DNA of 49,483 nucleotides. It comes from an uncultured Gammaproteobacteria bacterium. Its GTDB lineage: Bacteria; Patescibacteriota; Microgenomatia; UBA1406; GWC2-37-13. A program made the translations under genes and the position numbers. Shown in pieces: positions 1,115 to 42,678 of this stretch. Numbering within the stretch: the stretch's first letter is position 1; each line of letters begins with the position of its first letter. Location: NCBI GenBank assembly GCA_964358305.1, contig CAYHOJ010000001.1, positions 1 through 49,483 of the forward strand. Direction: 5' to 3'. The notes beneath the pieces were generated by a model. It saw nothing but the letters and a program-made list of their open reading frames with translations. It had not been told where the DNA came from and made no database searches.

Positions 1115-1157
1115 TCTATCGTCAAAAGAATCCTTTCCCAACAACATAATTCCTTAC

Positions 1158-1205
1158 TTTTGTAGGTTATAAGCGACTGACAAATGAAAAAGGATTGTTT
1201 ATAGT
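1158..1205 (+). promoter_or_regulatory. Leader motif TTTTGTAGGTTATAAGCG plus sigma70-like promoter (CTGACA-N17-TATAGT)
   Basis: Same motif at 23548 (interrupted) and 42629, each 1 nt before a -35-like hexamer. Confidence 0.65.
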
Positions 1206-1214
1206 TATTCTAAG

Positions 1215-1397
1215 ATGAAAATAATAGTTGACGTAAAAATATCTTATTTAAAAATTATTTCATCTTTATCTGTTAACTGTGCCTCTGGAATTTTATTAAC
1301 ATTACCAGTTGTTAAGAACACCTCAATTTTAATAGCAAATATAATTTTTGCTATACTATTATTAATTTTAGCAGTTAAGATTGAAGATATAATATAA
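1215..1397 (+). CDS. Small 2-TM membrane protein
   Basis: 60-aa hydrophobic ORF directly after a promoter. Confidence 0.6.
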   Translation: MKIIVDVKISYLKIISSLSVNCASGILLTLPVVKNTSILIANIIFAILLLILAVKIEDII

Positions 1398-1399
1398 CT

Positions 1400-1519
1400 A
1401 TGTTTAATCTTGATGAGTACTATCGTAGAGGTCAGATAGGATTAGGTTTAGCACTTATCTCCGTACTTCTTTTATTAATTTTTTCCGTTAAAGTTGGTAA
1501 AGCTAGTAAAAATAAATAA
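1400..1519 (+). CDS. Small single-TM protein (39 aa, not in ORF track)
   Basis: MFNLDEYYRRGQIGLGLALISVLLLLIFSVKVGKASKNK*, starts 2 nt after the previous stop. Confidence 0.55.
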   Translation: MFNLDEYYRRGQIGLGLALISVLLLLIFSVKVGKASKNK

Positions 1520-1522
1520 TTC

Positions 1523-1555
1523 TGTCGTCAGGCAGGGGAAGGAATAGGGATGACA
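1523..1555. repeat. Imperfect palindrome TGTCGTC...AGGGATGACA, right flank of small-ORF cassette
   Basis: Matches 1083-1114 at both ends. Confidence 0.5.
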
Positions 1556-1647
1556 GTAAGAATATTTATTTGAAGAATATTAACAATACTATTGCATATA
1601 CAAAGTCGTCCCAATCACATTTAAAAAAGCAGTTTTTAAAATTTTTG

Positions 1648-1718
1648 TTGGGAGACTAGGAATCGGACCTAGATAACAACATCCAAAGTGTTGTGTCCTA
1701 CCGTTGGACGATCTCCCA
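1648..1718 (-). tRNA. tRNA-Gln(UUG), CCA not encoded
   Basis: Acceptor TGGGAGA/TCTCCCA (U1-A72), anticodon arm CAACA-CTTTGGA-TGTTG, T arm CTAGG-TCCGATT-CCTAG. Confidence 0.93.
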
Positions 1719-1778
1719 TAAGTTAAACAGAGTATATTTTACCAAAAAACAGCTTCTATAGTTTGCTATAATTTTGCT

Positions 1779-2936
1779 ATGAACGACACAATTACTTGTC
1801 CGCACTGCAAAAAAAAGTTTCCCCTCGATCAGGCGATGACTCACGAGATAAAGGAACAACTTGAGGTAGAGACAAATAAAAAATTAGAAGATGAGAAAAA
1901 ACGTTTAAATGATGAAGCCCACAGTTGGAGAGAAAATCAACTAACAAAATTAAAAGAGAAAGCCAAAGAAGAGATGAAAATGCAGCTTAAAGATAAAAGT
2001 AATGAACTTGAGGAATTAAGGAATCAGAAAAAAACTTTGCAGGAACAAACATTAGAACTGAATAAACTAATACGCCAAATAAAACAAGAAAGTGACAATC
2101 AAAGAATTGAAATGGAAAAGAAATTAATGACTTCACAAGAAAATATTAGGGAAGAGGAAAAAAGAAAGTCTGACGAAGAAAACAAACTAAAAATTTTGGA
2201 AAAAGATAAGAAAATATCAGACGCAATGAAAATGGTTGAAGAATATAAAAGAAAATTAGAACAAGGATCTCAGCAGTCTCAAGGAGAAGTAATGGAAGAT
2301 GAATTAAAAAAAATATTAGGAACAGAATTCCCTTATGATTTTATATCCGACGTACCCAAAGGTATTCGAGGAGCTGATTTAGTACAGACAGTAAAAAATA
2401 ACGCCGGAAAAGAATGCGGAACGATTTTATGGGAGTCAAAAAGAACTAAAGCCTGGACTGAGGGATGGATATCTAAATTGAAACAAGATCAAAGAGAAAT
2501 AAAAGCAGAACTGGCTATTATTGTGACTCAAGTTATGCCGCAGGGGGTAAAAAATTTTGGGTTGAAGGATGGAATCTGGGTGGTTGATTATAAAACAGTA
2601 ATAGGAGCGGCAATATCTCTCAGAAACAATTTGATAGAAGTATTTGGTGTTCGTTCAGCAAATCGCGGCAAAGAAGAAAAAAAAGAAATTTTATGGAACT
2701 ATTTAACCAGTGTAGAATTTAAACAACGGGTTGAAGCAATCTACGAATCTTATAACAGTTTGCGTGATGAATTACAAAAAGAAAAAGATTGGTTCACTCA
2801 TAAATGGGCTAGGGAAGAAAAAAATATTTCTTTAATTAAAGATAATTTACTTGGTATGCATGGAGATTTGGAAGGGATTGTGGGAAAGACACTCCCGGAA
2901 TTAGAGCAGTTGAAAGAACTAGGATCAGGAAAATAA
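1779..2936 (+). CDS. DUF2130 family coiled-coil protein
   Basis: N-terminal CPHC, long coiled coil, GSQQSQGEV, GAD and ILWESKRTKAW motifs. Confidence 0.85.
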   Translation: MNDTITCPHCKKKFPLDQAMTHEIKEQLEVETNKKLEDEKKRLNDEAHSWRENQLTKLKEKAKEEMKMQLKDKSNELEELRNQKKTLQEQTLELNKLIRQIKQESDNQRIEMEKKLMTSQENIREEEKRKSDEENKLKILEKDKKISDAMKMVEEYKRKLEQGSQQSQGEVMEDELKKILGTEFPYDFISDVPKGIRGADLVQTVKNNAGKECGTILWESKRTKAWTEGWISKLKQDQREIKAELAIIVTQVMPQGVKNFGLKDGIWVVDYKTVIGAAISLRNNLIEVFGVRSANRGKEEKKEILWNYLTSVEFKQRVEAIYESYNSLRDELQKEKDWFTHKWAREEKNISLIKDNLLGMHGDLEGIVGKTLPELEQLKELGSGK

Positions 2937-2946
2937 AAAAACGGAA

Positions 2947-3033
2947 GTCATTCCCGCGAAGGCGGGAATCCAGACTAAAATAACTTTTTAAAATGTAATT
3001 ATCGACTGGATCCCCTCCTACGAGGGGATGACA
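2947..3033. repeat. Inverted doublet of GTCATTCCCGCGAAGGCGGGAATCCAG-type REP (dRS3-like)
   Basis: Hairpin 2947-2973 and an inverted variant 3004-3032 around an AT-rich spacer. Confidence 0.85.
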
Positions 3034-3038
3034 AACTT

Positions 3039-3593
3039 ATGAAATCAAATATTATAGATAATCCAAACCTTCATAATTTTTTCTCCTTCATCTCAAAAGC
3101 GGTAATAATTATTCCGATTTTTATTTTGATTATTTCATTATTCTTAAAATTTGGACAATCAAAAACGGGTTTGATAAATCAAACCCCAACAAAAGTACAG
3201 ACGCCCAATTTGGGCGTCTCTACAAAAAATAATGATTTCAAATTTGATCTTAAAGGACCAATTGTTTGTGATAGTTTATTTATTAAAGATAAAAAAATAT
3301 TATTAAAAAATAAATCAACAAATTATATATTAAATGGCGATTGTCTCTATATCTGGGAAACTGGAAAATTTAATGGGGAAAAGAAATGTGGTTTATCCAG
3401 CTATGTTAGCTTAGCTGAAACGTACTTAGATTTTATGAGTGTTGATGATTTAATCAATAATAATTTAATCAAAGACAAAATCAAAAACAAAGATATCGAT
3501 TTATGGAAAGTGATAAAAAGTTGCAAAAGGGAAGAAATTAAAGATAAAATAATATTTAACGTGCCTAAAAATATTCTATTTAAATTAAAATAA
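3039..3593 (+). CDS. Hypothetical membrane-anchored protein
   Basis: N-terminal TM, CxYxW/GxKxC motifs; contains an in-frame REP at 3195-3223. Confidence 0.75.
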   Translation: MKSNIIDNPNLHNFFSFISKAVIIIPIFILIISLFLKFGQSKTGLINQTPTKVQTPNLGVSTKNNDFKFDLKGPIVCDSLFIKDKKILLKNKSTNYILNGDCLYIWETGKFNGEKKCGLSSYVSLAETYLDFMSVDDLINNNLIKDKIKNKDIDLWKVIKSCKREEIKDKIIFNVPKNILFKLK

Positions 3594-3610
3594 TATTTTT
3601 TCCCAATAAA

Positions 3611-3737
3611 AATGTCCCGGCTACGACCTACTTTCCCTTCATCTTTCGATGTGAGTATCATTGGCGCTGACTCGTTTCACGACCTTGTTCGGGATGGAAA
3701 AGGGTGGGACCAAGTCGCTCAAGTAACCAGGACGATT
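3611..3737. repeat. Long imperfect GC-rich hairpin
   Basis: Nested complementary blocks such as GTCC/GGAC, CTTTCC..TTCATCT/GGGATGGAAAAG, TGTGA/TCAC. Confidence 0.5.
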
Positions 3738-3758
3738 GATAGTATATAATATAAATGA

Positions 3759-4313
3759 ATGGAAAACAATAATAAAAAAAGCTCTGCTTTCTATTCTTAT
3801 ATTTATAATCCTCAGATTAAATTTGATACCCAAGAGGATGGGGAAAATATATATTTATTACTTCGTAGTCATCCTTTTACTCAAATTGGTTGGATATTAG
3901 CTTCAATTTTACTTGTCATTTTATTTTTTGGACTAAATTTTTTTATTGTAAATTTATTTGATTTAGAACAATTATTTATAATAAATTTATTTTTTATTGT
4001 TTTTATTTTTAGTTTTATTTGGCTTAATGTTTTAAATTGGTATTTTAACGCAGGAATTGTGACCAATAAGAAGGTTATTGATATAGATTTTTACTCGGTG
4101 ATCTATAAAGAAATAACCGTGGCCCAGTTAGGAAAAATTGAAGATATCACTGTAAAAAGTGGTGGTTATTTTGGGTCATATTTTGATTACGGATCAGTCT
4201 TTATTCAAACAGCAGGAAGCGCAGTCAATGTAGAATTTATCAATATCCCTCATCCTTCCAATGTAGCCCAAACGATCAATAAATTATTAGGAAAAAAACA
4301 TGGATCTCAATAA
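3759..4313 (+). CDS. Membrane protein with bacterial PH (bPH_2-like) domain
   Basis: Two TMs, then IVTNKKVIDID, IEDITV, FDYGSVFIQTAG. Confidence 0.8.
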   Translation: MENNNKKSSAFYSYIYNPQIKFDTQEDGENIYLLLRSHPFTQIGWILASILLVILFFGLNFFIVNLFDLEQLFIINLFFIVFIFSFIWLNVLNWYFNAGIVTNKKVIDIDFYSVIYKEITVAQLGKIEDITVKSGGYFGSYFDYGSVFIQTAGSAVNVEFINIPHPSNVAQTINKLLGKKHGSQ

Positions 4314-4548
4314 CTTTTTTTCAACCATAAACGAGATAGGGATAAAGAATATTTTTTTTATGTTGTTTGCAATGATTTTTGCCATTTTTTATTTTTTTTA
4401 TGCTTTAGTAATCTCAAAGCAAGTTCAGGTCATGGATAAAGCCCTTCAAGATAAATATAACTGGCTTATTCTTTTCGTGACTTCATTGCAAGTGACAGCG
4501 TCATTGGCTATATTGATAATAGTATTACTCGCCGTATTTATTGTTTAA
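4300..4548 (+). CDS. Small 2-TM membrane protein
   Basis: 82 aa, overlaps upstream stop, operon-like. Confidence 0.7.
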   Translation: MDLNNFFSTINEIGIKNIFFMLFAMIFAIFYFFYALVISKQVQVMDKALQDKYNWLILFVTSLQVTASLAILIIVLLAVFIV

Positions 4549-4660
4549 AAATTTTAAATTTTAAATTTCAAATCACAAATAAATCATAAATAATAAATTT
4601 AAAACAGTTTATTATTTAAATTTTATTTGGAGCTTGGGATTTAGGATTTAGAATTTATTT
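4546..4660. repeat. Two-armed heptamer-periodic inverted repeat
   Basis: AAATTTT/AAATTTC/AAATCAC arm and TTGGAGC/TTGGGAT/TTAGGAT/TTAGAAT arm; related single arm at 46341-46398. Confidence 0.7.
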
Positions 4661-4662
4661 TT

Positions 4663-6354
4663 ATGTTTAAGCAAGAAATTGGCTTCTATTTAGGTCGTGA
4701 GAAACCTGATGGTTTTTCCGGTTTTGTTGACGAAAACAATTTATTTTTGAGCGTTGAAATTGAGACGGGTATTACTCCGGATCGCGGTCGAGAATTAACT
4801 GCCTACATTCGAGAAAAAATTAGCGTCATCAAGATTGAAAACTTACAACAATTTGATGTCTTTATTTCAAACATTATTAAAGAAAAGAATCTGCCGTCAG
4901 GGTTTTCTCTTTCTGCCGGTTATTTAAAAGGAAGTATTTTTTATTTGAAGACAGTTAATCAGGGTAAAGTCTATATTCGGCGCAATAATAAACTGGCCCT
5001 TCTTATCGAACGGGACGAAACTGCCTCAGGATATATTAAAGAAGAAGATGTTTTTGTCTTTACTTTTAATAGATTTATGAAACTGTTGGGAGAGGAAACT
5101 GGATTGAACCAAAAATTTGATCACAGATCAATCTTAGATATTATTGATGAAATAACCCCAGAATTACTTGAGCTCGATGACCAGGGGACGGCGGCTTTAT
5201 TTTTAAAACTAAAAAAAATAGAAGAAGAAATAACAAGAGCAAATGATTTTAGTTTAAAAGATTTCTATCAACGATTCGGTCAGCAAAAAACTTTAACATT
5301 CATCACGGTTTTTATTTTGGGAATAATTCTATTTTGGAGTGTCGGTTTTGGGTATATGCGTCGTTCAAACGAGAATAATCAGAAAAAAATTAATTTAACT
5401 CGTGATCTTATAAGTCAAAAATTGAATCAGGCAGAGGAAGTATCATTCTTAAATATGTCAAGTGCGTTAAGTTTGATCGCAGATAGTAAGGAAGAAGTGA
5501 AAAAGCTGGAAAAACAGATAGGAGATAAGAGAAAGGAGTTGGGCGAGATAAACAAAATGATTATTGATAGTGAGAACAAGATTTTGAAAAAAGAAGAAAA
5601 AAAATATACAGAATTTTTTGATTTGACCGTTGATGATAAAAATGCAAAAGGAGATAAAATCTATCTTAGCAACGACCGTCTTCTAGTTAGTGATAAGACA
5701 AGAGGAGTTCTGTATGAACTTTCACTTGATAAGAAATCTTTAGACAAAGATCAATCTAATGAAATAAAAAAATCTACCCTGATTGCTTTGTCTGAAGAAA
5801 AAAAATATTTTTATGTTGAAGGCGCTGGTGTTTATCAGATCATTGATGGAAAAACGAATAAGATCATTGAAGATGATAAGGATTGGGGCAAGATTGTTGA
5901 CCTGGAAGTTTTTAACAGTAATATTTATTTGTTAGACCAGGGAAAAGATCAAATTTGGAAATATATGGTTGCGGAATCAGGATTTGGTAGTAAAAGTTCT
6001 TATTTTCAATCTGGTCAATCAGTTGATTTATCTCAAGTAAATTCTTTGAGCATTGATGGCTCGGTTTATTTGGCTGGGGATGCGATTATGATCAAATATA
6101 CATCAGGTCTTCGTGACGGATTCAAAATTGATCTGCCTGATGGAAGCGCCAACATAAATAAAATCTTTACCACTCGCGATTTGGAAAAAGTGTACGGTTG
6201 GGATAAAAAGAGGGGAATAATTTATGTGATGAATAAAAACGGAGATTATCAGGAGCAGGTGAATTCAAAAATTTTGTCTACTGCCACAGACTTTGTAGTT
6301 TATAAAAATTCGATCTATGTTCTGCAGGGGGGCAAGATCTATAAGATAGAATAA
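4663..6354 (+). CDS. Single-pass membrane protein: degenerate PP2C-like N-domain, coiled coil, beta-propeller
   Basis: Central TM, repeated beta-blade patterns (NIYLLD, IDGSVY). Confidence 0.7.
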   Translation: MFKQEIGFYLGREKPDGFSGFVDENNLFLSVEIETGITPDRGRELTAYIREKISVIKIENLQQFDVFISNIIKEKNLPSGFSLSAGYLKGSIFYLKTVNQGKVYIRRNNKLALLIERDETASGYIKEEDVFVFTFNRFMKLLGEETGLNQKFDHRSILDIIDEITPELLELDDQGTAALFLKLKKIEEEITRANDFSLKDFYQRFGQQKTLTFITVFILGIILFWSVGFGYMRRSNENNQKKINLTRDLISQKLNQAEEVSFLNMSSALSLIADSKEEVKKLEKQIGDKRKELGEINKMIIDSENKILKKEEKKYTEFFDLTVDDKNAKGDKIYLSNDRLLVSDKTRGVLYELSLDKKSLDKDQSNEIKKSTLIALSEEKKYFYVEGAGVYQIIDGKTNKIIEDDKDWGKIVDLEVFNSNIYLLDQGKDQIWKYMVAESGFGSKSSYFQSGQSVDLSQVNSLSIDGSVYLAGDAIMIKYTSGLRDGFKIDLPDGSANINKIFTTRDLEKVYGWDKKRGIIYVMNKNGDYQEQVNSKILSTATDFVVYKNSIYVLQGGKIYKIE

Positions 6355-6390
6355 TATTAAATTAAATAAGAATTTAAAGTCCGGCTGGAA

Positions 6391-6419
6391 TTGACAACCA
6401 TAAAGCGATGCTTTATACT
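6391..6419 (+). promoter_or_regulatory. sigma70 promoter TTGACA-N17-TATACT with operator-like IR ATAAAGC-N3-GCTTTAT
   Basis: Near-consensus hexamers; ATG 8 nt after the -10. Confidence 0.75.
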
Positions 6420-6427
6420 TTGTTCAT

Positions 6428-7468
6428 ATGAAAAACTTATTTAGTGATCTGATTAAAAAGAAAAAAAAATTAGATAGCCTTTTACCTTTAAAAAAAGAAT
6501 TCTTAACAGAGATAGAAGACTGGTTGAAAGTGGAGTTAACTTATTCTTCAAATGCTATTGAGGGCAATACTTTAACCCGTAAAGAAACAGCCGAAGTCTT
6601 AGAAAAGGGAATTACTGCCGTTATATCTGGAAAACCTCTTAGAGATCAAATAGAGGCAATCAATCATGCTAAGGCTATAGAATTTATAAAAGATTTGGCT
6701 AAAAGAAAAAAAGAACATACAGAGATTAAAGAAGAAGATGTAAATAATATTCATAGGATTATTTTGACAGGTATTGATGATAAATGGGCTGGAAAATATA
6801 GAGAAACAGAAGTATTTATTAAGGGATCAAATGTTGATTTACCTCAACCTATAAAAGTTCCATATTTGATGAATGGGTTTATTCAGTGGTTATCAACTCA
6901 GAGAAAGGTTAACCCAATAAAAGTGGCCGCAGACGCCCATTATAAATTAGTAAGTATTCATCCCTATATTGATGGAAATGGTCGAACAGCAAGGCTTTTA
7001 ATGAATTTAATTCTTATTATCAACGACTATCCAATGGTAATCATAAGAAACGAAGAAAGGATTCAATACTTAGATTCATTAGAAGAAGCCCAACTAAAAG
7101 GAAAAATGGATTTGTATTATCATCTTATTACTTTGTCAGTTGATCGTTCACTTGAAGCTTATATCAATGCTGCTTCAAGTAAGCCCATTTTGCCGGCTTT
7201 TGAAAAAAAATCAACTTTTAAATATAAATCTAAGCGAGGATTTATCACCTATTTTGAACTTCTAAAAATTGGCGAATTAGCAAAAGAGACAGGAGAGACA
7301 ATTCACACTCTAAGATATTGGACAAAGATGGGGTTATTAAAAGTGACCAAACATACAGAGGGTGGATATCAATTATATTCTCCTGAAGTTATAAAGCAAG
7401 CTGAAAAAATAAGAAAACTTCAAAAAGAAAAAAGATTAACGATAGAAGAAATAAAAAAATTAATTTAA
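6428..7468 (+). CDS. Fic domain protein with C-terminal MerR-type HTH
   Basis: HPYIDGNGRTAR, inhibitory SNAIEGN, C-terminal LKIGELAKETGETIHTLRYWTKMGLL. Confidence 0.9.
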   Translation: MKNLFSDLIKKKKKLDSLLPLKKEFLTEIEDWLKVELTYSSNAIEGNTLTRKETAEVLEKGITAVISGKPLRDQIEAINHAKAIEFIKDLAKRKKEHTEIKEEDVNNIHRIILTGIDDKWAGKYRETEVFIKGSNVDLPQPIKVPYLMNGFIQWLSTQRKVNPIKVAADAHYKLVSIHPYIDGNGRTARLLMNLILIINDYPMVIIRNEERIQYLDSLEEAQLKGKMDLYYHLITLSVDRSLEAYINAASSKPILPAFEKKSTFKYKSKRGFITYFELLKIGELAKETGETIHTLRYWTKMGLLKVTKHTEGGYQLYSPEVIKQAEKIRKLQKEKRLTIEEIKKLI

Positions 7469-7469
7469 A

Positions 7470-7847: not shown

Positions 7848-8140
7848 TTTGGTATGATATCAGTCTTTAAGACAACTCCTAATAATTGGATAACTAAGTA
7901 ACTAATAACAACAATAATCAGGCCCAAGACGGCAGTTGCAATTGATGCGTAAGCTTTTTTTAAAGCGTCAGGATTATCACCATGAGTCAAAATATCAAAA
8001 GCGGCTTTAAGAGTGACAAATAAAAAAATAAGTCCAGCCCCGGTCATAGCTAAAGGAAGAGCAAGACTGACAATTTGACCAATACTTGTTATTTTTGCTG
8101 CAGGAAAACTATTTTGATCAATCTTGAATGCGTAGACCAT
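7844..8140 (-). CDS. VirB2/TrbC-like pilin (start revised to ATG 8140)
   Basis: TM-GDNPDALKKAYASIATAVLG-TM; TATAAT 6 nt upstream of ATG 8140. Confidence 0.7.
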   Translation of the reverse strand: MVYAFKIDQNSFPAAKITSIGQIVSLALPLAMTGAGLIFLFVTLKAAFDILTHGDNPDALKKAYASIATAVLGLIIVVISYLVIQLLGVVLKTDIIPK

Positions 8141-19882: not shown

Positions 19883-20017
19883 ATGAAACGTACCTATCAG
19901 CCAAAAAAAGCTAAAAGAGTAAAAAAACACGGATTTTTAAAGAGAATGGATAGTCATGATGGAAGAAAAGTGCTGAAAAGAAGAAGAGGAAAAGGAAGAG
20001 CGAAGCTAACAGTATAA
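19883..20017 (+). CDS. rpmH: 50S ribosomal protein L34 (not in ORF track)
   Basis: [44 protein letters not shown]. Confidence 0.97.
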
Positions 20018-20118
20018 TACGAATACTACGAATAAAGAAATCCGAATGCTGCAAATTATGCGAATATTCGTATAATTCGTATCATTTGCATAAAGATTCG
20101 TATCATTCGTATTATATT
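20015..20118 (+). repeat. Empty CGAAT/ATTCG two-armed element (copy A)
   Basis: Begins with the rpmH TAA, ends directly at the yidC ATG; arms joined at GAATATTC. Confidence 0.9.
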
Positions 20119-20946
20119 ATGTTAAATCCAAACTTATTTAATACTGTCTTTGTCATTCCAATTTTAAATTTATTGGTTGTTTTTTATAAGTTATTTTTAT
20201 TTATTAAGCTTCCTGGTGCTTTCGGATTTGCGATTATTGCTTTAACAGTCGCTGTCCGCTTACTTTTTCAACCTTTTTTTCAGAAACAGATAGAGACAGC
20301 CAAAAAAATGCAGGAACTCAAACCTCATTTAGATAATCTTTCTTCAAAACATAAAGATGATAAAAAACAACTTCAAGCTGAGCAGTTGAAGCTTTATCAA
20401 CAACATGGAATTAATCCGACTTCCGGTTGTTTGGTAATGATTATCCAACTACCAATCTTTATTGCTTTATATAACACCCTAAATTTATTTTTATTAAACG
20501 GTCATGCAGAAAAGACAATTACGGCTATAAATAAAGTTTTGTATTTTTCTTTTTTGAAAATTGATTCAGTTAATTCTTGGTTTTTTGGATTGGATTTGGT
20601 TAAAACGCCAAAACAAGCCGGTACATGGATATATTTATTAATTCCGTTGATAACAGGAATTCTACAATATTTTCAAGCTCAAGCCTCTATGCCGTCAACC
20701 TCAGGAGAGAAAACCTCCGCGGTTGGCTTAAGCAAGAAACCAGGGCAAACCGCGGAGGTTAAAAACAAGGATGGTGGCGGTGATTTCCAAAAAGCCATGA
20801 ACACGCAAATGAAATACATGTTTCCGCTGATGATCGGTTGGTTCTCATATACTTTGCCAATAGGCTTAGCTTTATATTGGAATATTTTTTCGATTATGGG
20901 TATAATACAGTACAAAAAGGTGAATGGAAAATTAAAAGTTAAATAA
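20119..20946 (+). CDS. yidC: Membrane protein insertase YidC/Oxa1 (start revised to 20119)
   Basis: FGFAIIALTVAVR, LYQQHGINP..GCL..IQLPIF, GLALYW. Confidence 0.95.
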   Translation: MLNPNLFNTVFVIPILNLLVVFYKLFLFIKLPGAFGFAIIALTVAVRLLFQPFFQKQIETAKKMQELKPHLDNLSSKHKDDKKQLQAEQLKLYQQHGINPTSGCLVMIIQLPIFIALYNTLNLFLLNGHAEKTITAINKVLYFSFLKIDSVNSWFFGLDLVKTPKQAGTWIYLLIPLITGILQYFQAQASMPSTSGEKTSAVGLSKKPGQTAEVKNKDGGGDFQKAMNTQMKYMFPLMIGWFSYTLPIGLALYWNIFSIMGIIQYKKVNGKLKVK

Positions 20947-20947
20947 A

Positions 20948-21046
20948 TAATACAAATACAACGAATGAAGAAATGCAAATGACACGAATTATACGAATAT
21001 TCGCATAATTTGCAGCATTCGCATAAAAATTCGTATCATTCGTATT
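20948..21046 (+). repeat. Empty CGAAT/ATTCG two-armed element (copy B)
   Basis: Starts 1 nt after the yidC stop; aligns with copy A. Confidence 0.9.
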
Positions 21047-21060
21047 TTAAAAATAATATT

Positions 21061-21516
21061 ATGGATAAGACACAGGTTATCAAAACTGAAACGGAAGAAC
21101 TATTGGGAAAAATGATTACAAAGTTTGAGGTGGAAGTGACCGATGATGGCGGAGTTTTTCAGGTAATTATTAAAACTGATGAAGAAGTATCAACTGTAAT
21201 CGGTCGCCATGGAGAAACAATCCGAGCCATTCAAAAAATATTAGAAGTAATTCTTTACAAAAAATTTAATGAAAGAGTTGAAATTTTAGTGAACGTCAAC
21301 GACTTTCGGGAAAAACAAAAGGAACGACTTGAAACAATGGCTCGTGAATATGCAGATCAAACCAAAGCAGCCGGAACAGCCGGATATATTCGCTCACTTT
21401 CATCTTTTGAGAGAAAGTTGATTCACGAATTTATAACTGCCAACTATCCTGACCTGACCACTTCGTCAGTTGGAGAGGGTAGGGAAAGACAGTTGGTGAT
21501 TGAAGCCAAAAAATAA
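21061..21516 (+). CDS. jag: Jag/EloR-like RNA-binding protein (KH + R3H, no Jag_N); start revised to 21061
   Basis: VIGRHGETIRAIQ (KH), SFERKLIH (R3H), located after yidC. Confidence 0.88.
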   Translation: MDKTQVIKTETEELLGKMITKFEVEVTDDGGVFQVIIKTDEEVSTVIGRHGETIRAIQKILEVILYKKFNERVEILVNVNDFREKQKERLETMAREYADQTKAAGTAGYIRSLSSFERKLIHEFITANYPDLTTSSVGEGRERQLVIEAKK

Positions 21517-22016
21517 TACGAATACCGCGAATAAAGAAATACGAATATAGCAAATTATGCTAATATTGGGTTATGGGGAAAATTATACACCCAGAGCTTT
21601 CGTTTAAAGTTAATGGAATTCTATTTAAAACTCATAATCAATTGGGAAGATATTATAGCGAAGGACAATATGCTGATTTTGTAGAAAAACTTCTCAAAGA
21701 ATCCAATATTAGGTATGAACGCGAAAAAATACTTCCACCGATATTTGATGGAGAAAAGACTGGAAGAAATAAAGTAGATTTCTTAATAGAAGATACAATT
21801 ATTTTAGAATTAAAATCAAAGACAATAATTACAAAAGACGATTATTATCAAGTAAAAAGATATTTGACGGCGCTAAATAAAAAACTTGGAATTATAGTTA
21901 ATTTTAGATCTTCTTACATTTATCCAAAAAGAGTTTTGAATTCTTCAGCAAATGAATAAGTTTTTATTCGTATAATTTACATCATTTGCATAAAATTCGT
22001 AGATTCGTATTTTATT
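21514..22016 (+). mobile_element. Filled CGAAT/ATTCG element carrying the GxxExxY gene
   Basis: Left arm 21514-21567 and right arm 21965-22016 match the two halves of the empty copies. Confidence 0.7.
21573..21959 (+). CDS. GxxExxY family PD-(D/E)XK nuclease-like protein
   Basis: LGRYYSEGQY, VDFLIEDTIILELKS, QVKRYL, LGIIVNF. Confidence 0.9.
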   Translation: MGKIIHPELSFKVNGILFKTHNQLGRYYSEGQYADFVEKLLKESNIRYEREKILPPIFDGEKTGRNKVDFLIEDTIILELKSKTIITKDDYYQVKRYLTALNKKLGIIVNFRSSYIYPKRVLNSSANE

Positions 22017-23475: not shown

Positions 23476-23674
23476 ATAACTTAACAACGGCCGTGGGTAA
23501 GATATATATCGAAGAAATTACATTGTCCCAAAAATCTAATCAACTACTTTTGTAGGTTATCCTTCGACTTCGCTCAGGACAAGTAAGCGGTTGACAAGAT
23601 TAATACCACTATTTAAATTTAACTTGAGATAAGTTAATTATAAATTACATCTATCCCACGGCCGTGGACAAGAT
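23476..23674 (+). promoter_or_regulatory. Two ACGGCCGT-core palindromes bracketing the interrupted leader motif and TTGACA promoter
   Basis: Palindromes at 23476-23505 and 23649-23674; motif 23548-23589 with a 24-bp insert. Confidence 0.7.
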
Positions 23675-23691: not shown

Positions 23692-24279
23692 ATGAAAAAT
23701 TTAAAGGAGACAAAGTTGAAAAGAGGACAACTATATTGGTATATCTTAGAAATTATCGGTTTGACTTTAGTATCAGGCGGTAATCCGCTTCGACCGATTA
23801 TTCCTTTGGCTATTAAAGAAATCATTAAAATTCTAAAGGAAGTTAAAAATCTAAATGTTGAGGAGGTAAAAATAAGAAAAAGCTTAGAAAGATTGGAGGA
23901 AAAAGAAATCGTTGATATAGAAGAGAGAGATGGAAAAGTTTTCGTGAGATTAAAAGATCAAAATAATTCGACAATAATAAAATATTCGATCAAAGCACTT
24001 TTAGATTTTAAAAAGAAAGAGAAAAAATGGAATGGAAAATGGTTTCTAATTTTTTTTGATGTACCAGAAATACAAAGAAATAAACGGGATTATTTACGTG
24101 ATTATTTACAAAAAATAGGATTCTATAGATATCAACAGAGCGTTTACATTTTTCCTTACGAGTGTGAAAAGGAGATAGATTTAATCAAAAAGATTGTTGA
24201 GGGAGCAAAATATATGAGGTATATAATAGCCGAGAAAATAGAGGATGAAGAAAGAATTAAAACCTTTTTTAAACTGTAA
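23692..24279 (+). CDS. CPR-type PaaX-like protein (wHTH + Cas2-like domain)
   Basis: KWNGKWFLIFFDVPE..RNKRDYLRDYL..GFYRYQQSVYIFPYEC. Confidence 0.85.
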   Translation: MKNLKETKLKRGQLYWYILEIIGLTLVSGGNPLRPIIPLAIKEIIKILKEVKNLNVEEVKIRKSLERLEEKEIVDIEERDGKVFVRLKDQNNSTIIKYSIKALLDFKKKEKKWNGKWFLIFFDVPEIQRNKRDYLRDYLQKIGFYRYQQSVYIFPYECEKEIDLIKKIVEGAKYMRYIIAEKIEDEERIKTFFKL

Positions 24280-24282: not shown

Positions 24283-24312
24283 TTATCTTACCTACGGCCG
24301 TGGAGGAGTTAA
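24283..24312. repeat. Third ACGGCCGT-core palindrome, 3 nt after the stop
   Basis: TTATCTTACCTACGGCCGTGGAGGAGTTAA. Confidence 0.75.
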
Positions 24313-33941: not shown

Positions 33942-34054
33942 AATATAATACGAATCTGCGAATTTATGCAAATTCTGCGAATTATGCGAATTTCTTTTGT
34001 TTTATTCGTATAATTCGTATCATTTGCATTTCTTCATTTGTGGTATTCGTATTA
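33942..34054 (-). repeat. Empty CGAAT/ATTCG element with short central spacer
   Basis: On the - strand starts 2 nt after stop 34057 and ends just before ATG 33940. Confidence 0.9.
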
Positions 34055-34056
34055 TT

Positions 34057-35121
34057 TTATTTCTTAACCCCAAATGCTAATCTATATAACGGATACGGGT
34101 AACGGGTATTTTCATTATAAGGGATTTGATAACGGCCATAAGCTGGATCATAGGCAAAAATATTTCCTTTAGCATCAATATCAGTGATCCAAAAATAATG
34201 GCCGCAACCTTTCTCGCAAAAACTTGCTAAAGTAAAAAATGTCCAACCGGCGTTTAGATATTTTCGGAGTTGTGGGACAACAGTATCTGCTTTTTCTAAA
34301 TCAAAAACAAGATAGTCGGTAGTTTTTAACCCGAGCGATTTCAAAAGTTCATGAGCATCAGAATAACGGGAACCGTCATTTCCAAGGAGATAATCATTTG
34401 ATTTATAAAGGCCAACGACAGTTTTCGGATCGTATTTTTTATCCATATAACTTGAGGAAATCATTGCGACCGTTGTTGGTCCACAACCGGCACTACATAG
34501 AGTTCCACCATCGGGTAAAGGTAAACTGCCTTGGTCACCGCATTGGGCATAATAAGTGAAAGAGGGATTAGGGGTTAGACCGTTAGGGGCTAGAGAAGAA
34601 GGGCTGGGGGATTGTTCGATTGTTCCATTGTTCGATTGTTGAGATCCTTCACCAATGTTATTTAGATCATCCATTAATTGAAAAAAGTCTTTTACTTTAT
34701 TTTCGAGCTTATGGATAGAATCGCTTGGGGTTGGAATAATTTTTTTATCAGTAAATAAAATATTTTTTTTGCCACCGCTACTGTTAATAATAGAACTTAA
34801 CTGATTTTGATCGACCCATTGATTAAACATTTCTTCAGCTTGGGGAGTTTTTTTCTCAACGACGACTTTGTTTAATTCAGGTACGTAGGCGGCTTTAAAA
34901 TCGAGTGTTTCAATTGATTCGAATGAATTTGATAAATTATCTAAATCTTTTAATCCTTGATCGCCACCTGTTCCATTAGTTCCTCGGTCAGGGAGACCGG
35001 TCGGGAAAGGAGAGTTATTTTGGGTGTCCGTCGTTGTTTTTTTTCCTAGAGAAAGAAGCATTGAGGTAATTACGAGAAGGATAAGGAAAGCTCCGGCAAT
35101 AACTAAATATATTTTTTTCAT
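34057..35121 (-). CDS. Membrane-anchored protein with peptidase C39-like domain
   Basis: YYAQC..AGCGPTTVAMI..GHYF..YDP. Confidence 0.8.
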   Translation of the reverse strand: MKKIYLVIAGAFLILLVITSMLLSLGKKTTTDTQNNSPFPTGLPDRGTNGTGGDQGLKDLDNLSNSFESIETLDFKAAYVPELNKVVVEKKTPQAEEMFNQWVDQNQLSSIINSSGGKKNILFTDKKIIPTPSDSIHKLENKVKDFFQLMDDLNNIGEGSQQSNNGTIEQSPSPSSLAPNGLTPNPSFTYYAQCGDQGSLPLPDGGTLCSAGCGPTTVAMISSSYMDKKYDPKTVVGLYKSNDYLLGNDGSRYSDAHELLKSLGLKTTDYLVFDLEKADTVVPQLRKYLNAGWTFFTLASFCEKGCGHYFWITDIDAKGNIFAYDPAYGRYQIPYNENTRYPYPLYRLAFGVKK

Positions 35122-38221: not shown

Positions 38222-38246
38222 AAAAATTGCTTTTGCCTCATTAATT
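38143..38246. repeat. Long imperfect hairpin spanning the clp stop codon
   Basis: AATTAA/TTAATT, GGCAA/TTGCC, GCAATTTTT/AAAAATTGC. Confidence 0.7.
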
Positions 38247-38271
38247 ACTTGACTTCTGATATCATAGCTAT

Positions 38272-38907
38272 ATGATTGTTTTCTTACTTCAGATAATCGC
38301 AATTTACATTATCTCAAGGTTAATATTAAAAGAGCTTTTTTTATTTTTAAGAAAATTTTTTAGTACAGATTTTCCAGTTTTTATTTTAGTTTCTTTTATC
38401 TTTCTTCCTGGAACAATTATCCATGAAACCGCTCATTTTATCACGGCGTTATTTCTTATTTTACCCGTCAAAAGTATGTCAGTTTTCCCTAAATGGGACA
38501 ACAACGAGATAAAGTTAGGAGAAGTGCTTTTTGTAAAAAAAGATTTTCTAAGAGCAATTCTTGTTGGAATTGCTCCAATATTTTTTGGAATTGGAATATT
38601 ATTTTCGCTATTTTATTTTCATATATATCCAGCCAATAATATCGGATTAAATATTTTATATTCGTATTTAGTTTTTTCCATATCAGCCAATATGTTTTCT
38701 TCAAAACAAGATCTTAAAGATTTATTATTGGTTATTCCGGTAATAGTTTTACTGATAATAATATTTTATGTTTTTGATATTAAAATAAACATGAACAGTA
38801 TAAATGTTATAATGAATCAAATTAATTCATATATTTTTTTTGTTCTGATAATAGACATTGTTTTGTTTGGAGTTTTAAAATTATTAAATCGTTTTGTTAA
38901 AAGATGA
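38272..38907 (+). CDS. M50-like membrane metalloprotease
   Basis: LPGTIIHETAH (HExxH), GIAP, SKQD, several TMs. Confidence 0.75.
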   Translation: MIVFLLQIIAIYIISRLILKELFLFLRKFFSTDFPVFILVSFIFLPGTIIHETAHFITALFLILPVKSMSVFPKWDNNEIKLGEVLFVKKDFLRAILVGIAPIFFGIGILFSLFYFHIYPANNIGLNILYSYLVFSISANMFSSKQDLKDLLLVIPVIVLLIIIFYVFDIKINMNSINVIMNQINSYIFFVLIIDIVLFGVLKLLNRFVKR

Positions 38908-39227
38908 GATTTCTTGCGCAATCATTAAATATTGGAACGGATAATCCTGTAAAAATCGAGGGTCCGCTTGATGATAGTGTTAGCTCTCTAGGTCAAATTA
39001 TTTCTAAAGGTTTAGGTTTTATTATGCCAATGGCGGGGATAGTTCTTCTTTTTGTCCTAATTTCCGGAGGTTATGACTATATGATGTCACAGGGAAACCC
39101 TGATAAAATTAAGGCCGGTCAAGCAAAAATTACTTCAGGAATTATTGGTTTTGTTCTCTTAATCATCTCGTTTTTAGTGACCAGATTAATTGCTTACGTC
39201 TTTGGTCTTGGCGGTGGAATTTTTTGA
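38904..39227 (+). CDS. VirB2/TrbC-like pilin
   Basis: SQGNPDKIKAGQAKITSGIIG between TMs. Confidence 0.78.
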   Translation: MRFLAQSLNIGTDNPVKIEGPLDDSVSSLGQIISKGLGFIMPMAGIVLLFVLISGGYDYMMSQGNPDKIKAGQAKITSGIIGFVLLIISFLVTRLIAYVFGLGGGIF

Positions 39228-39249
39228 TTCAATAAACTACAATATATCT

Positions 39250-39945
39250 ATGCAAGAATCTCCAATTGTTATTTCCGTTGGCGGTAGTCTCATTGTCCCC
39301 AATGGCGGGATTGATACAGATTTTTTAATCAAGTTAAATAAATTAATAAGAGAAGAAGTCGCGAGTGGGAAGAGATTTATGCTAATTGCCGGTGGAGGCA
39401 AATTGGCCAGACGATATCAGGAAGCAGGGAGCGCTGTGATTGGAAAGTTGACAAAAGATGACTTAGACTGGTTGGGTATTCATTCAACTCATCTTAACGG
39501 ACATCTTCTTAGAACGATATTTCAAGATATTGCAAATCCCAGAGTCATCCAACATTATGATCGTCGCCTAGAAAATTGGACCGAATCGGTGGCAATCGGA
39601 GCTGGATGGATGCCTGGTTGCTCTACAGATTATGATGCGGTAATATTGGCGCGTGATCATAAAGCAAAAATGATAATTAACATGTCAAATATTGATTATG
39701 TTTTTGATCGCGATCCTGGTAAATTTTCCGATGCTAAACCATTAAAGAAAATCACATGGAAAGCAATGAAAGAATTAGTTGGAGACAAATGGATGCCTGG
39801 ACACAACTCTCCTTTTGATCCGATTGCAACAAAACTTGCTACAGGTTTGAACCTAACTGTTGTGATAGCCAACGGTAATGATATGAAAAATATTCAAAAA
39901 ATTATTAATGGAGAATCTTTTAAGGGAACCGTCATAAGCCCATGA
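39250..39945 (+). CDS. pyrH: UMP kinase, archaeal-type (start revised to 39250)
   Basis: VISVGGS, GGGKLARRYQ, DWLGIHST, PGCSTD, PFDP. Confidence 0.9.
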   Translation: MQESPIVISVGGSLIVPNGGIDTDFLIKLNKLIREEVASGKRFMLIAGGGKLARRYQEAGSAVIGKLTKDDLDWLGIHSTHLNGHLLRTIFQDIANPRVIQHYDRRLENWTESVAIGAGWMPGCSTDYDAVILARDHKAKMIINMSNIDYVFDRDPGKFSDAKPLKKITWKAMKELVGDKWMPGHNSPFDPIATKLATGLNLTVVIANGNDMKNIQKIINGESFKGTVISP

Positions 39946-41009
39946 TCCTCAAATCAATTTCTTTCCACAACTTTCGAAATTTTGACAAAAAACAATATAA
40001 AATTAACCCTTATTTAACGACGATATTTGGAGATAATGCTCTGGGAAAAACTAATTTACTGGAGGGAATTTACTTCATATTAAAGGGGGAAGGATTTCGG
40101 GAAAGTAAAGAAGAACAGCTAATTATTTTTAATGAAAAAAATGGTTACGTTGACGCAAAAATAGAAAATAAAAAAAATAAGGATATTAGCAATTTAAGAA
40201 TAGATTTAACAATTAATGACTTTGGTTTAAGTAAAACATATTTTTTAGAAAAGACAAAAAAGGGTCGTCATTCATATTTAAAAAATTTGATTCCTGTCGT
40301 GTTATTTTCTCCGGAACAAATAGAAGTAATTGATAGAACAATGTCGTATCGCCGTGAATATTTCGATAAATTTTTGTCTGAGATCGATTCAGAATATAAA
40401 AAATGTTTAACAAATTATAATCAGGCGCTAAGAAAAAGAAATAAGATTTTAGAATCGAGCTTTAATAGTCAGAACCTTGATGTAGAACTTGATTACTGGA
40501 ATAAACTTCTCATAGACAATGGTTCGTACTTAATTATGAAGAGGCGAGAATATATCTTTTTTTTAAATTCAAACAGTATTATTGATTCAAAAAAATTTAA
40601 AATAGAATATAAAGAAAATAAAATTAATAAGGAACGATTTACTGAATCACTTCAAAAAGAATTATTAATCAAAAGAACTTTAGTTGGCCCACATAGAGAC
40701 GAATACAATATTTTTATGATTGATAAATCGTCAGTTAAAAAAAATATCCACATGTACGGTTCCCGCAGCGAGCAACGCTTAAGTTTATTCTGGCTGAAGA
40801 TTAACGAATTAAAATATTTAGAAGATTTTTTTAAGAAAAAACCGATTTTATTACTTGACGATATATTCTCAGAGCTGGATCACAATAATCAAAAATTAAT
40901 ATTTAATTTAATTGGTAATTACCAAACGGTAGTCACTTCAACTGAAAAAAAATTAACAAAATTAATTAATCTTTCTGATGACGCCTCTTACGATACCATA
41001 GATCTGTAG
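39942..41009 (+). CDS. recF: DNA replication/repair protein RecF
   Basis: NFRNF, GDNALGKTNLLE, GPHRDE, LLLDDIFSELD. Confidence 0.93.
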   Translation: MILKSISFHNFRNFDKKQYKINPYLTTIFGDNALGKTNLLEGIYFILKGEGFRESKEEQLIIFNEKNGYVDAKIENKKNKDISNLRIDLTINDFGLSKTYFLEKTKKGRHSYLKNLIPVVLFSPEQIEVIDRTMSYRREYFDKFLSEIDSEYKKCLTNYNQALRKRNKILESSFNSQNLDVELDYWNKLLIDNGSYLIMKRREYIFFLNSNSIIDSKKFKIEYKENKINKERFTESLQKELLIKRTLVGPHRDEYNIFMIDKSSVKKNIHMYGSRSEQRLSLFWLKINELKYLEDFFKKKPILLLDDIFSELDHNNQKLIFNLIGNYQTVVTSTEKKLTKLINLSDDASYDTIDL

Positions 41010-41531
41010 ATCATTAATTGGGTAAAAAGGAGGGTATTTGGGATTAGCGGCCTCCAGATAATTAATATGTTTTTTCCTGTCAGTCTTTAATATTTTTAAA
41101 GTCCATTCGTTATCAATTTGGGCAAGAACAATACTGCCGGTATTAACATCTTTTTTTCGCTCAATTATAACAATATCCCCTTCAAATATTCCGACTCCTG
41201 TCATTGAATCACCCGAGACCTTAAGAAGAAATGAAGTTTGTGGGTTCTCGATCAGATAGTCATCTATCGTCAGATAGTCTTTATTTTCTTCAGCTAAAAT
41301 TGGAAAACCGGCTTTTATAACTCCAAGAAGGGGGAGAGCAAAAAACTTTCTTGTTGGGGATAATTTTTTACTTTCTTTTTCGATGAATCCGAGATCAATT
41401 AATTTATTAATTATTTTAAAAACAGCATTCTTAGAAGAGATATTAAAAAGCTTCAACATCTCAGAATAAGAAGGAAGCCTTCTGTTTTTACGAAAAAATT
41501 TTTTAATACTTGATAATCTATCTTCGATCAT
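40962..41531 (-). CDS. lexA: LexA-like repressor (wHTH + S24 peptidase)
   Basis: PSYSEM, IKAGFP cleavage site, VSGDSM, WTLK. Confidence 0.85.
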   Translation of the reverse strand: MIEDRLSSIKKFFRKNRRLPSYSEMLKLFNISSKNAVFKIINKLIDLGFIEKESKKLSPTRKFFALPLLGVIKAGFPILAEENKDYLTIDDYLIENPQTSFLLKVSGDSMTGVGIFEGDIVIIERKKDVNTGSIVLAQIDNEWTLKILKTDRKKHINYLEAANPKYPPFYPINDLQIYGIVRGVIRKIN

Positions 41532-41539
41532 AGAGAACC

Positions 41540-41569
41540 ATTATAGTAAACACTTGTTCACTTATGCAA
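41540..41569 (-). promoter_or_regulatory. lexA promoter with SOS-box-like GTGAAC-N4-GTTTAC
   Basis: TTGCAT-N18-TATAAT; the box fills most of the spacer; ATG 8 nt downstream. Confidence 0.7.
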
Positions 41570-41606
41570 ATGATTATTATTATAAGTTAGGAGATAGAGT
41601 GAAAGC

Positions 41607-41636
41607 TTATCTATGCCACGGCCGTGGGGGAGTTAT
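41607..41636. repeat. Orphan ACGGCCGT-core palindrome
   Basis: TTATCTATGCCACGGCCGTGGGGGAGTTAT; overlaps the stop of ORF 41611-42333. Confidence 0.75.
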
Positions 41637-42333
41637 TTGTTACTACTCCATTTATCTTATCAACAATACCCTCAATAAAATCAACGGAATCAGGAACACG
41701 ATCTCCATATCTCTTAAGAGCTTTTTCGGCAATTTCGACTCCATAATTTTTTTCTATCCAAGCACGACGTCCACTTTCAACAAAATAATTGAGGCCATAT
41801 TCTTTATCATCAAGTTCGTATCTTGGAACACCTTTTATTAAATCATTACCGGCTATATCGTTCATGATTTTAAAAATAAGCTCTTCACCATAATTTTTTC
41901 TTACCCAATGACCACGTTCTGCTACCCAAGGAATATGTTTTTTTGCTAAAACTATTAATTCTTTTGAGGTAAAAATTTTACTATCTATAAGACGTTTCAA
42001 ATCTTCTGGAGATATTCCTTTGATAACGTGTAAAAAAAGCTGGTCATTAGTCTCCATTATTTTTCTAAAAGCTTTAGGATTAGATGTTGCCGATTCAAGT
42101 AATAACTCAACTGTCTTAGCATTGCTAAGTGATTCTTTATAATTTTGAGTATTTATTCCACTTTTGACAGCTAATTTGGACATTAAAACAGATGTTTCGG
42201 GTAATGCTGTAAAAGTTGCAATATCATTTCCAAGTTGAGTACAATTTCTTTGTATGACTTTTAATACATTTTTCGACGGAGGTTCCATTAAATCTGCCGT
42301 ATTTAAAATGTGTGGAGCTTCACTATCAAGCAT
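41611..42333 (-). CDS. Hypothetical protein
   Basis: 240-aa ORF, no motif recognised. Confidence 0.7.
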   Translation of the reverse strand: MLDSEAPHILNTADLMEPPSKNVLKVIQRNCTQLGNDIATFTALPETSVLMSKLAVKSGINTQNYKESLSNAKTVELLLESATSNPKAFRKIMETNDQLFLHVIKGISPEDLKRLIDSKIFTSKELIVLAKKHIPWVAERGHWVRKNYGEELIFKIMNDIAGNDLIKGVPRYELDDKEYGLNYFVESGRRAWIEKNYGVEIAEKALKRYGDRVPDSVDFIEGIVDKINGVVTNNSPTAVA

Positions 42334-42493
42334 ATATAAAAATTTTACTACTACTACTACGAAGTCAAGAGTTTTTTCCCCGAGTTAATAATGAAAGTTT
42401 AGATAAAAAAATAAAAGATAATAAAAATGAAAGAGACGAAAGCAAAAAATAAAGTAACAATCAGCCAACAAATTAAACGAATATTCTAATTAA

Positions 42494-42678
42494 AAAATAC
42501 TTTAATTAATTAAAGTATTTTATAAGTAATGTTTTGCGAGTTTTTCCTTACTTTTTAAAAAACATGTGGCTGATAAGACAGAGTATACATCGATAAAAAT
42601 ATATTGTCTCATTAACCCGTTTGATTAGTTTTGTAGGTTATAAGCGGTGGACTGTCAAACTTTAATTAATTAAAGTTT
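42494..42678 (+). promoter_or_regulatory. Two ACTTTAATTAATTAAAGT palindromes bracketing the TTTTGTAGGTTATAAGCG leader
   Basis: Perfect palindromes 42494-42521 and 42657-42678; motif 42629-42646. Confidence 0.75.

What the first reader, a model, noticed from the sequence alone, without database searches (positions are those of the whole stretch)
1132..42676. Shared leader module in front of three unrelated mini-cassettes
Seen: TTTTGTAGGTTATAAGCG occurs at 1158, 23548 (interrupted) and 42629. In all three it is preceded, exactly 17 nt earlier, by TT(G/T)TC(C/T)CA and followed after one purine by a -35-like hexamer (CTGACA, TTGACA, TGGACT) with a -10 17 nt later. Downstream genes are unrelated (two micro membrane proteins, PaaX/Cas2-like, TrpR-like) but each is bracketed by its own palindromes. 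Inference: a common recombination/mobilisation site or master-regulator site defining a family of single-gene cassettes.
Basis: partly seen in the sequence, partly recalled or inferred. Interest (0 to 1): 0.8.

Follow-up and report, generated by a model that had tools for sequence, protein, structure and literature searches.

The report
Controller-protein box of a competence regulon
The repeated leader is a promoter element that sits in front of DNA-uptake and recombination genes and many small accessory genes across one group of uncultured, ultra-small bacteria, and it is likely the switch by which a small regulator resembling restriction-system controller proteins turns on natural transformation.

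Summary
The genome holds 24 copies (19 intact, 5 split by a REP-like hairpin). Each has an 18-bp dyad centred 42.5 bp before the predicted transcription start, next to a sigma70-type promoter, usually with a 47-bp upstream extension. It is not the cassette breakpoint. In relatives the box precedes comEA(-comEC) (28/29), recA (21/30), radC (14/30) and dprA (11/29), and also comM and comF, against 13/649 ORFs in this genome. It does not precede lexA, uvrB or ssb (0/16). It matches the C.Esp1396I operator in sequence and the activating operator in position. A C-protein-like XRE gene, often directly after rpoD, carries the box itself (28/30). It keeps the residues that read the invariant bases and lacks the one that reads the variable bases. 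Best reading: a domesticated controller-type activator of a competence regulon in Roizmanbacteria, shared by mobile mini-cassettes. Binding, activation and competence are inferred, not shown, and the regulator gene is missing from this 81%-complete assembly. The scan noted analogous competence regulons in Omnitrophota and Actinobacteria, but not this motif.

The parts
1111..1157 (+). Upstream extension of module 1 (fixed 47 bp, loosely conserved; function unexplained)
   Evidence: logo of 178 copies
1158..1178 (+). Core box 1 (T-tract plus 18-bp dyad 1161-1178), predicted operator of the C-like regulator
1177..1205 (+). Predicted sigma70 promoter (-35 1177-1182, -10 1200-1205)
   Evidence: TAnnnT at +42 in 43% of 382 sites
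1215..1519 (+). Two micro ORFs (60 aa 1215-1397; 39 aa 1400-1519), hydrophobic, no Pfam hit; the first starts near the predicted transcription start
23485..23496 (.). Left palindrome of the PaaX-like cassette
   Evidence: repeat family D6
23501..23547 (+). Upstream extension of module 2
23548..23592 (+). Core box 2, split at its dyad centre; predicted not to be bound as an intact operator
23560..23583 (+). REP-like hairpin insertion (30 pattern matches in the genome; 5 modules are split at this position)
23591..23619 (+). Predicted sigma70 promoter (consensus -35 23591-23596, -10 23614-23619)
23656..23667 (.). Middle palindrome of the PaaX-like cassette
23692..24279 (+). PaaX-like gene (PF20803, Cas2-like central domain)
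24292..24303 (.). Right palindrome of the PaaX-like cassette
40962..41531 (-). LexA (TIGR00498 over cut-off); used as control, lacks the box
41546..41561 (-). Candidate LexA box, a different motif (AAC-N4-GTT dyad, upstream of 6 of 6 lexA genes)
42499..42516 (.). Left palindrome, at the left homology boundary of the TrpR-like cassette
42582..42628 (+). Upstream extension of module 3
42629..42649 (+). Core box 3 (dyad 42632-42649)
42648..42676 (+). Predicted sigma70 promoter (-35 42648-42653, -10 42671-42676); the cassette's middle palindrome 42659-42676 overlaps the -10
42684..43115 (+). TrpR-like gene (PF01371), start codon at the predicted transcription start (leaderless)
43123..43140 (.). 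Right palindrome, at the right homology boundary of the TrpR-like cassette

Best explanation
The module is a promoter element whose 18-bp dyad is likely bound by a small host XRE protein resembling restriction-modification controller (C) proteins, which would recruit sigma70 RNA polymerase to the adjoining -35 and so switch on DNA-uptake and recombination genes together with accessory cassettes that carry the same box. Shown: the box, its fixed geometry, the genes it precedes, the C-like gene with its own box, and the residue-to-base correspondence. Inferred: that this protein binds the box, that it activates (operator at the OL position, Glu25 kept, mostly non-consensus -35, no second operator seen at the OR position), that positive autoregulation gives a switch-like response, and that the cells become competent. 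TrpR-like and PaaX-like cassettes would be under dual control: switched on by the host factor and damped by their own product at their own palindromes. The 47-bp upstream extension likely binds alpha-CTD or a second factor; this part is weakest.
For: Target genes: box within 400 bp of recA 21/30, radC 14/30, dprA 11/29 (reversed controls 0, 1, 0) and within 800 bp of comEA 28/29 (control 0). comEC follows comEA in 5/5 relatives and in G000. Base rate is 13/649 ORFs. In G047 (97% complete) 13 of 14 pattern sites scored, and they precede comEA-comEC, comF, dprA, recA, radC, comM, a lamin-tail protein, the C-like gene and five others. Much the same gene set is under CRP-S sites in Pasteurellaceae (PMC5809987, passages). 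Site: dyad centre at TA|TA, no base-pair covariation and no coding signal. In 382 sites TG, G, TATA and C are 98-100% invariant, the ATG peak is at +54, and only 24% have TTGACA. The C.Esp1396I OM operator (PMC9803871 Table 1) matches every invariant base. OL lies 42.5-43.5 bp before the leaderless start codon (my arithmetic); ours lies at 42.5. Protein: top PDB hits are C.AhdI, C.BclI and C.Esp1396I. The box precedes 28/30 top loci and rpoD is near 17/30. A strong homologue is in 81/91 box-bearing versus 45/110 box-less genomes. R35 and T36 read the TG and C, and R46 reads GT (PMC3488213). In 78 proteins R46 is never Arg, and its two bases vary. Glu25, which contacts sigma70 (PMC2504287), is kept in 51/53 main-type proteins.
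Against: No binding, transcription or transformation data. The C-like gene is not in this assembly; neither are rpoD, recA, radC, comM or comF. G000 dprA lacks the box. In two box-rich genomes (G041, G058) recA lacks it. 45 genomes have a strong homologue without the strict box, and the pattern was derived from this genus. PDB E-values (1e-7 to 1e-9) are close to those of SinR and DdrO, which are repressors, and the symmetric OM site of Esp1396I represses. ssb and the pilus ATPases lack the box, unlike the Pasteurellaceae regulon, where ssb and pilA carry the site. The weight matrix is biased to genus g1, and related genomes are not independent.
Confidence: 0.62

Rival explanations
1. Same box and same XRE protein, but it represses (SinR/DdrO-like, or like C.Esp1396I at OM), and the regulon is induced when the repressor is removed.
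For: The dyad overlaps the -35 by 2 bp. SinR and DdrO are among the PDB hits. OM represses (PMC2691842). A CAAX-type protease gene follows the C-like gene in many genera (17 proteins; PF02517). The second paralogue lacks Glu25 in 24/25.
Against: The position equals the activating OL site, Glu25 is kept in 51/53 main-type proteins, and 76% of -35 hexamers are non-consensus.
Confidence: 0.17
2. The box marks the competence regulon but is read by another factor (another regulator or an alternative sigma); the C-like gene is only a target.
For: No binding data. The 47-bp extension suggests further factors. The C-like gene is missing from 5 box-rich genus genomes (80-90% complete). An earlier AI note proposes an ECF sigma for an analogous Omnitrophota regulon (untested here).
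Against: The promoter hexamers are sigma70-type and the box is a dyad upstream of them. It matches a solved C-protein operator. The invariant and variable bases follow the kept and lost contact residues, and the T/S residue tracks the right half-site of each gene's own box (T: ATC/GTC 28/32; S: AGC 9/11; paralogue: ACC/GCC 23/23, not phylogenetically independent).
Confidence: 0.11
3. The module is a shared recombination or mobilisation site for single-gene cassettes.
For: 17 of 24 copies in G000 precede accessory genes. Tandem module-gene-module arrays exist (C6, C35). The left edge often abuts the stop codon of the upstream gene. The core has a central TATA dyad and is unusually invariant in this clade.
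Against: Cassette homology ends at the cassette's own palindromes, about 80 bp outside the module, and the empty site has no box. 0/21 and 0/18 other loci carry a box. It sits at fixed comEA and recA loci; at recA in this genus it often overlaps the end of the upstream gene with no extension. Resolvase was not found in 3/5 genomes, including single-contig G058, and tyrosine recombinases number only 1-2 per genome.
Confidence: 0.06
4. It is the LexA (SOS) box.
For: It precedes recA, radC, transposases and toxin-antitoxin genes, and lexA lies beside copy 3.
Against: It is absent upstream of lexA 0/6 and uvrB 0/5, and lexA genes share a different dyad in 6/6.
Confidence: 0.02

Closest known systems
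R-M controller proteins C.Esp1396I / C.AhdI / C.BclI and their C-box operators (PDB 3CLC, 3S8Q, 3UFD, 1Y7Y, 2B5A)
   Same: XRE fold of about 70 aa with a DRTY/DRSY helix; TG-nn-G-nn-TATA-nn-C operator; box upstream of the regulator's own gene; operator centre 42.5 bp before a leaderless start; Glu25 equivalent.
   Different: No R-M genes among the neighbours; often directly after rpoD or beside dprA; one operator, no OR seen; Arg46 replaced; about 10-30 sites per genome rather than one or two promoters.
Competence regulons: CRP-S/Sxy (Pasteurellaceae; PMC5809987), and from memory ComX cin-box and ComK K-box
   Same: One promoter motif in front of comE/comEA, rec2/comEC, comF, comM, dprA and radC.
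   Different: Different motif and candidate regulator; ssb and pilus ATPases are not preceded by the box; most sites in this genus serve accessory cassettes.
Class II activator sites such as lambda cI at PRM (position recalled; Glu34-sigma70 contact cited in PMC2504287)
   Same: Dyad abutting the -35 and an acidic activating residue.
   Different: Chromosomal multi-gene regulon.
Site-specific recombination sites (res, attC, dif; recalled)
   Same: Central TATA dyad, fixed length, association with single-gene cassettes.
   Different: Not at the breakpoints and not left at empty sites; fixed to a promoter.

Membership tests
R-M controller (C) protein system | Small XRE protein with (D/H)R(T/S)Y recognition helix | tested here: met
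   D or N at position 34, T/S/A at 36
R-M controller (C) protein system | TATA-centred operator upstream of own gene at fixed distance, leaderless start | tested here: met
   28/30 loci, mostly 54-65 bp from box start to ATG; operator match
R-M controller (C) protein system | Two operators, OL and OR, in a 35-bp site | tested here: not met
   no conserved second TATA at +25..+28 in the logo
R-M controller (C) protein system | Linked endonuclease/methyltransferase genes | tested here: not met
   no R-M Pfam family among 52 representatives of 180 neighbouring ORFs from 59 loci, about 1.2-1.5 kb each side; some representatives had no hit
R-M controller (C) protein system | Binding and activation through sigma70 | not testable with these tools
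   Glu25 kept in 51/53 is indirect
Competence regulon | Shared motif before DNA-uptake and recombination genes | tested here: met
Competence regulon | Pilus genes and ssb in the regulon | tested here: not met
   ssb 0/5; pilus ATPases present in 5/5 genomes, none directly behind a listed site (one search compared by coordinates; upstream operon starts not traced)
Competence regulon | Co-induction and transformability | not testable with these tools
   needs RNA data or culture
LexA/SOS regulon | Motif upstream of lexA and uvr genes | tested here: not met
   0/6 lexA, 0/5 uvrB
Site-specific recombination site | Breakpoints within the site; site kept at the empty locus | tested here: not met
   few strictly syntenic pairs
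Structured RNA or REP-type hairpin | Compensatory base-pair changes | tested here: not met
   observed symmetry equals column-shuffled expectation; Rfam not searched

The most novel reading that the evidence does not exclude
Roizmanbacteria have domesticated a restriction-modification controller protein as the master switch for natural competence: a positively autoregulated activator beside rpoD, with a non-activating paralogue in one genus as a brake. Transposases, toxin-antitoxin pairs and palindrome-bracketed mini-genes have wired themselves to the same box, so they are expressed when DNA is being taken up and recombined.
Probability: 0.45. Interest if true: 0.85.

Novelty: new variant of a known kind. 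Interest (0 to 1): 0.72.

Why it matters
How and when the reduced, host-dependent Patescibacteria take up DNA is open, and my searches found no described competence regulator for them. This gives a motif, a gene list and a 72-residue candidate protein that can be tested in vitro and in E. coli without culturing the organism. It would also extend controller proteins from single mobile promoters to a global host regulon. It suggests why small accessory cassettes spread in these genomes, and it puts forward unannotated genes (lamin-tail protein, DUF3276, a hydrolase, a methyltransferase) as candidate transformation factors.

Tried and rejected
Peptide-coding reading: stop frequencies equal column shuffles in all six frames. 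RNA or ssDNA hairpin: no covariation. Recombination site and LexA box: see rivals. A ComK-like AAAA-N5-TTTT pair and dif, res or lux-box likeness were noticed from memory and not pursued. A second C-box inside the extension: none seen by eye in the logo. Viral contigs: 10 matches; the five printed lacked the extension and were left out. Four non-Patescibacteria genome matches (L096, L106, L114, L116) were dropped before logos; 23 listed records titled Gammaproteobacteria or Proteobacteria were kept on the inference that they are mislabelled. Expression: no RNA holder listed. Laying four contig sets gave one joint 41562-42491 with a 23-base side, too weak to use. The Patescibacteria SOS paper (PMID 28618189) is not held and may bear on the LexA box or on this motif. 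No structure or complex prediction was run. In one search, 22 of 30 tmk loci and 19 of 25 DUF2130 loci were examined; one tmk locus had only 73 bp, and G000's gene order after tmk differs from the others, so these are not strict empty sites. The radC set includes non-orthologous RadC-like genes and two loci with almost no upstream DNA.
Full report
Observation. The 18-mer is exact at 1158 and 42629 (chance mean 0.07) and split at 23548 by a 24-nt hairpin. The genome (752 kb, 73 contigs, 81% complete) has 16 exact and 18 near-exact copies, and 24 modules with the 5 split ones. A matrix built from other loci scores the intact copies 48-70 and finds nothing in the reversed genome. Named records with the degenerate core are mostly Roizmanbacteria or Patescibacteria (44 of 80 listed titles), so I place the window there by inference.

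Distribution. The exact 18-mer is in 12 of 24 sampled genus relatives. The others carry variants of the same site at the same place before homologous genes. A degenerate core is in 91 of 201 genomes of the order, 88 of 166 in the family, with control 0. Outside the order 8 of 280 genomes match, the same number as the control.

Anatomy. A logo of 178 copies shows a loosely conserved extension (-47 to -8), the core, a -35 at +19..+24 and TAnnnT at +42. The core is a dyad centred at TA|TA, with no covariation and no coding signal. In 382 sites the bases TG, G, TATA and C are 98-100% invariant, positions 8, 9, 14, 15 and 17 vary, TAnnnT is at +42 in 43% (1-9% at neighbouring offsets), ATG peaks at +54, and 24% have TTGACA. 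So the dyad centre lies 42.5 bp before the predicted start, and many transcripts would be leaderless.

Target genes. Clustering the downstream genes revealed ComEA, ComM, RadC, RecA, DprA and YraN-like proteins beside the cassettes. Direct tests: recA 21/30, radC 14/30, dprA 11/29 (controls 0, 1, 0); comEA 28/29; comEC behind comEA in 5/5 relatives and in G000; base rate 13/649. In G047, 13 scored sites precede comEA-comEC, comF, dprA, recA, radC, comM, a lamin-tail protein, the C-like gene, a GIY-YIG nuclease, an NYN protein, a methyltransferase, a hydrolase and a racemase (the comF and comEA NCBIfam hits are below cut-off, comM/YifB above). Against: lexA 0/6, uvrB 0/5 and ssb 0/5 lack the box, the pilus ATPases are not directly behind one, and G000 dprA lacks it. 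lexA has its own dyad, so this is not SOS. The gene set resembles the CRP-S regulon (PMC5809987, passages).

Cassettes. In G000, 17 of 24 modules precede accessory genes: TrpR-like 3, PaaX-like 2, Y1 transposase 4, toxin-antitoxin-like 3, micro membrane proteins 3, four-helix bundle 1 and coiled-coil 1. The other 7 precede comEA, the lamin-tail gene, DUF3276 (two modules), a hydrolase, a membrane protein and an SNase. The box precedes 28 of 29 TrpR-like loci, 4/4 Y1, 2/3 PaaX-like and 0/4 GIY-YIG genes. The window's TrpR-like cassette matches G008 from 42489 to 43146, palindrome to palindrome. In G021 lexA is joined to the gene at 45594 with no box. Other genomes have no box after tmk (0/21) or before DUF2130 (0/18). 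The box therefore travels inside the cassette as its promoter.

Candidate regulator. A 70-72 aa XRE gene recurred among the targets. Its best PDB matches are C.AhdI, C.BclI and C.Esp1396I. The published OM operator (PMC9803871, Table 1 passage) matches all invariant bases; on the g1-biased matrix it scores 15 of a possible 28. C genes are often leaderless, 17-18 nt after a 35-bp site (PMC2632904, passages), which puts the activating OL centre 42.5-43.5 bp before the ATG, as here. OL activates by recruiting sigma70, and Glu25 is the contact (PMC2504287, passages). R35, T36 and R46 read the operator (PMC3488213, passages). In 78 Roizmanbacteria-group proteins the R46 position is A, V, T or S, and the bases it would read vary. 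Glu25 is kept in 51/53 main-type proteins and lost in 24/25 of a second type. The gene has its own box at 28/30 top loci and is near rpoD at 17/30; in this genus it often lies beside dprA. A strong homologue (E<=1e-22) is in 81/91 box-bearing and 45/110 box-less genomes. No R-M gene was found beside it. It is absent from this assembly, as are rpoD, recA, radC, comM and comF, which I read as assembly gaps.

Mechanism. Shown: sequence, geometry, gene content and correspondences. Inferred: a dimer binds and bends the TATA, contacts sigma70 at the adjoining -35, amplifies its own synthesis, and switches on uptake and recombination genes and the cassettes, which their own repressors then damp (the TrpR-like palindrome overlaps the -10 at 42659-42676). 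Repression by the same protein is the main rival (OM represses; PMC2691842, passages).

Unexplained. The extension is kept at comEA across the genus and at C-like genes in other genera, but is mostly absent at recA. The core is nearly invariant in this clade. REP-like hairpins split 5 of 24 boxes at the same point.

Novelty. Searches (listings and abstract starts only) found no description of this motif or of a C-like competence regulator. PMC8565304 and PMC7739468 were seen only as reference passages. PMID 28618189 was not held and may bear on this; no supplements were read. The system works like a C-protein switch but fails two membership features (no OR, no R-M genes), so I file it as a new variant of a competence regulon. 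The competence reading was written down, before the analogous AI notes were seen.

Noticed in passing
L326, L328, L329, L332, L339, L340, L402: Genus g1 has two C-like genes, often in tandem. The second lacks the Glu25 equivalent (24/25) and has its own box subtype (right half ACC or GCC, weak -35). It may be an anti-activator.
   Followed up: partly
L296-L323 (e.g. L306:1764-2429): A CAAX-type (PF02517) membrane protease gene directly follows the C-like gene in many genera; possible signal processing.
   Followed up: no
window 41546-41561 (-): Candidate LexA box (AAC-N4-GTT dyad) before 6 of 6 lexA genes; resembles the Gram-positive SOS box (recalled). The same short dyad is before 4 of 30 recA and none of 5 uvrB genes.
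   Followed up: partly
window 23560-23583, 32565, 46301: REP-like hairpin family (30 pattern matches in G000) inserts into other repeats and into the centre of the box; flanks are often complementary to each other.
   Followed up: partly
L581 (G006 C59): An insertion of about 80 bp with a 9-bp direct repeat separates the extension from an intact core before the orthologous TrpR-like gene.
   Followed up: no
window 42499-43140 and L011-L040: Each TrpR-like paralogue is bracketed by its own variant palindrome, suggesting diversifying DNA specificity.
   Followed up: no
window 41616-41627: A fourth copy of the PaaX-type palindrome lies in the last codons of the 240-aa ORF upstream of lexA.
   Followed up: no
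window 20014-21567, 32478, 33966-34057: Low-complexity ATACGAAT-type repeat family around yidC, jag and a PD-(D/E)XK gene (21573-21959); these carry no box.
   Followed up: no
window 385-1720 versus L466-L489: The region past the 3' end of tRNA-Gln is highly variable in gene content between relatives.
   Followed up: partly
L388, L199, L195, L429: A lamin-tail protein, DUF3276, an LCAT-like hydrolase and a class I methyltransferase recur behind the box across genera; candidate transformation factors.
   Followed up: partly
L455, L457, L458, L459: comEC matches contain stop codons within the Pfam hit in 4 of 5 genomes; split genes or frameshifts not examined.
   Followed up: no
L222, L271, L361, L024, L213: Sister families carry a variant box (mostly TG-AT-G left half) before recA, dprA, TrpR-like or C-like genes, at the usual 54-55 bp from the start codon in G026.
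   Followed up: partly
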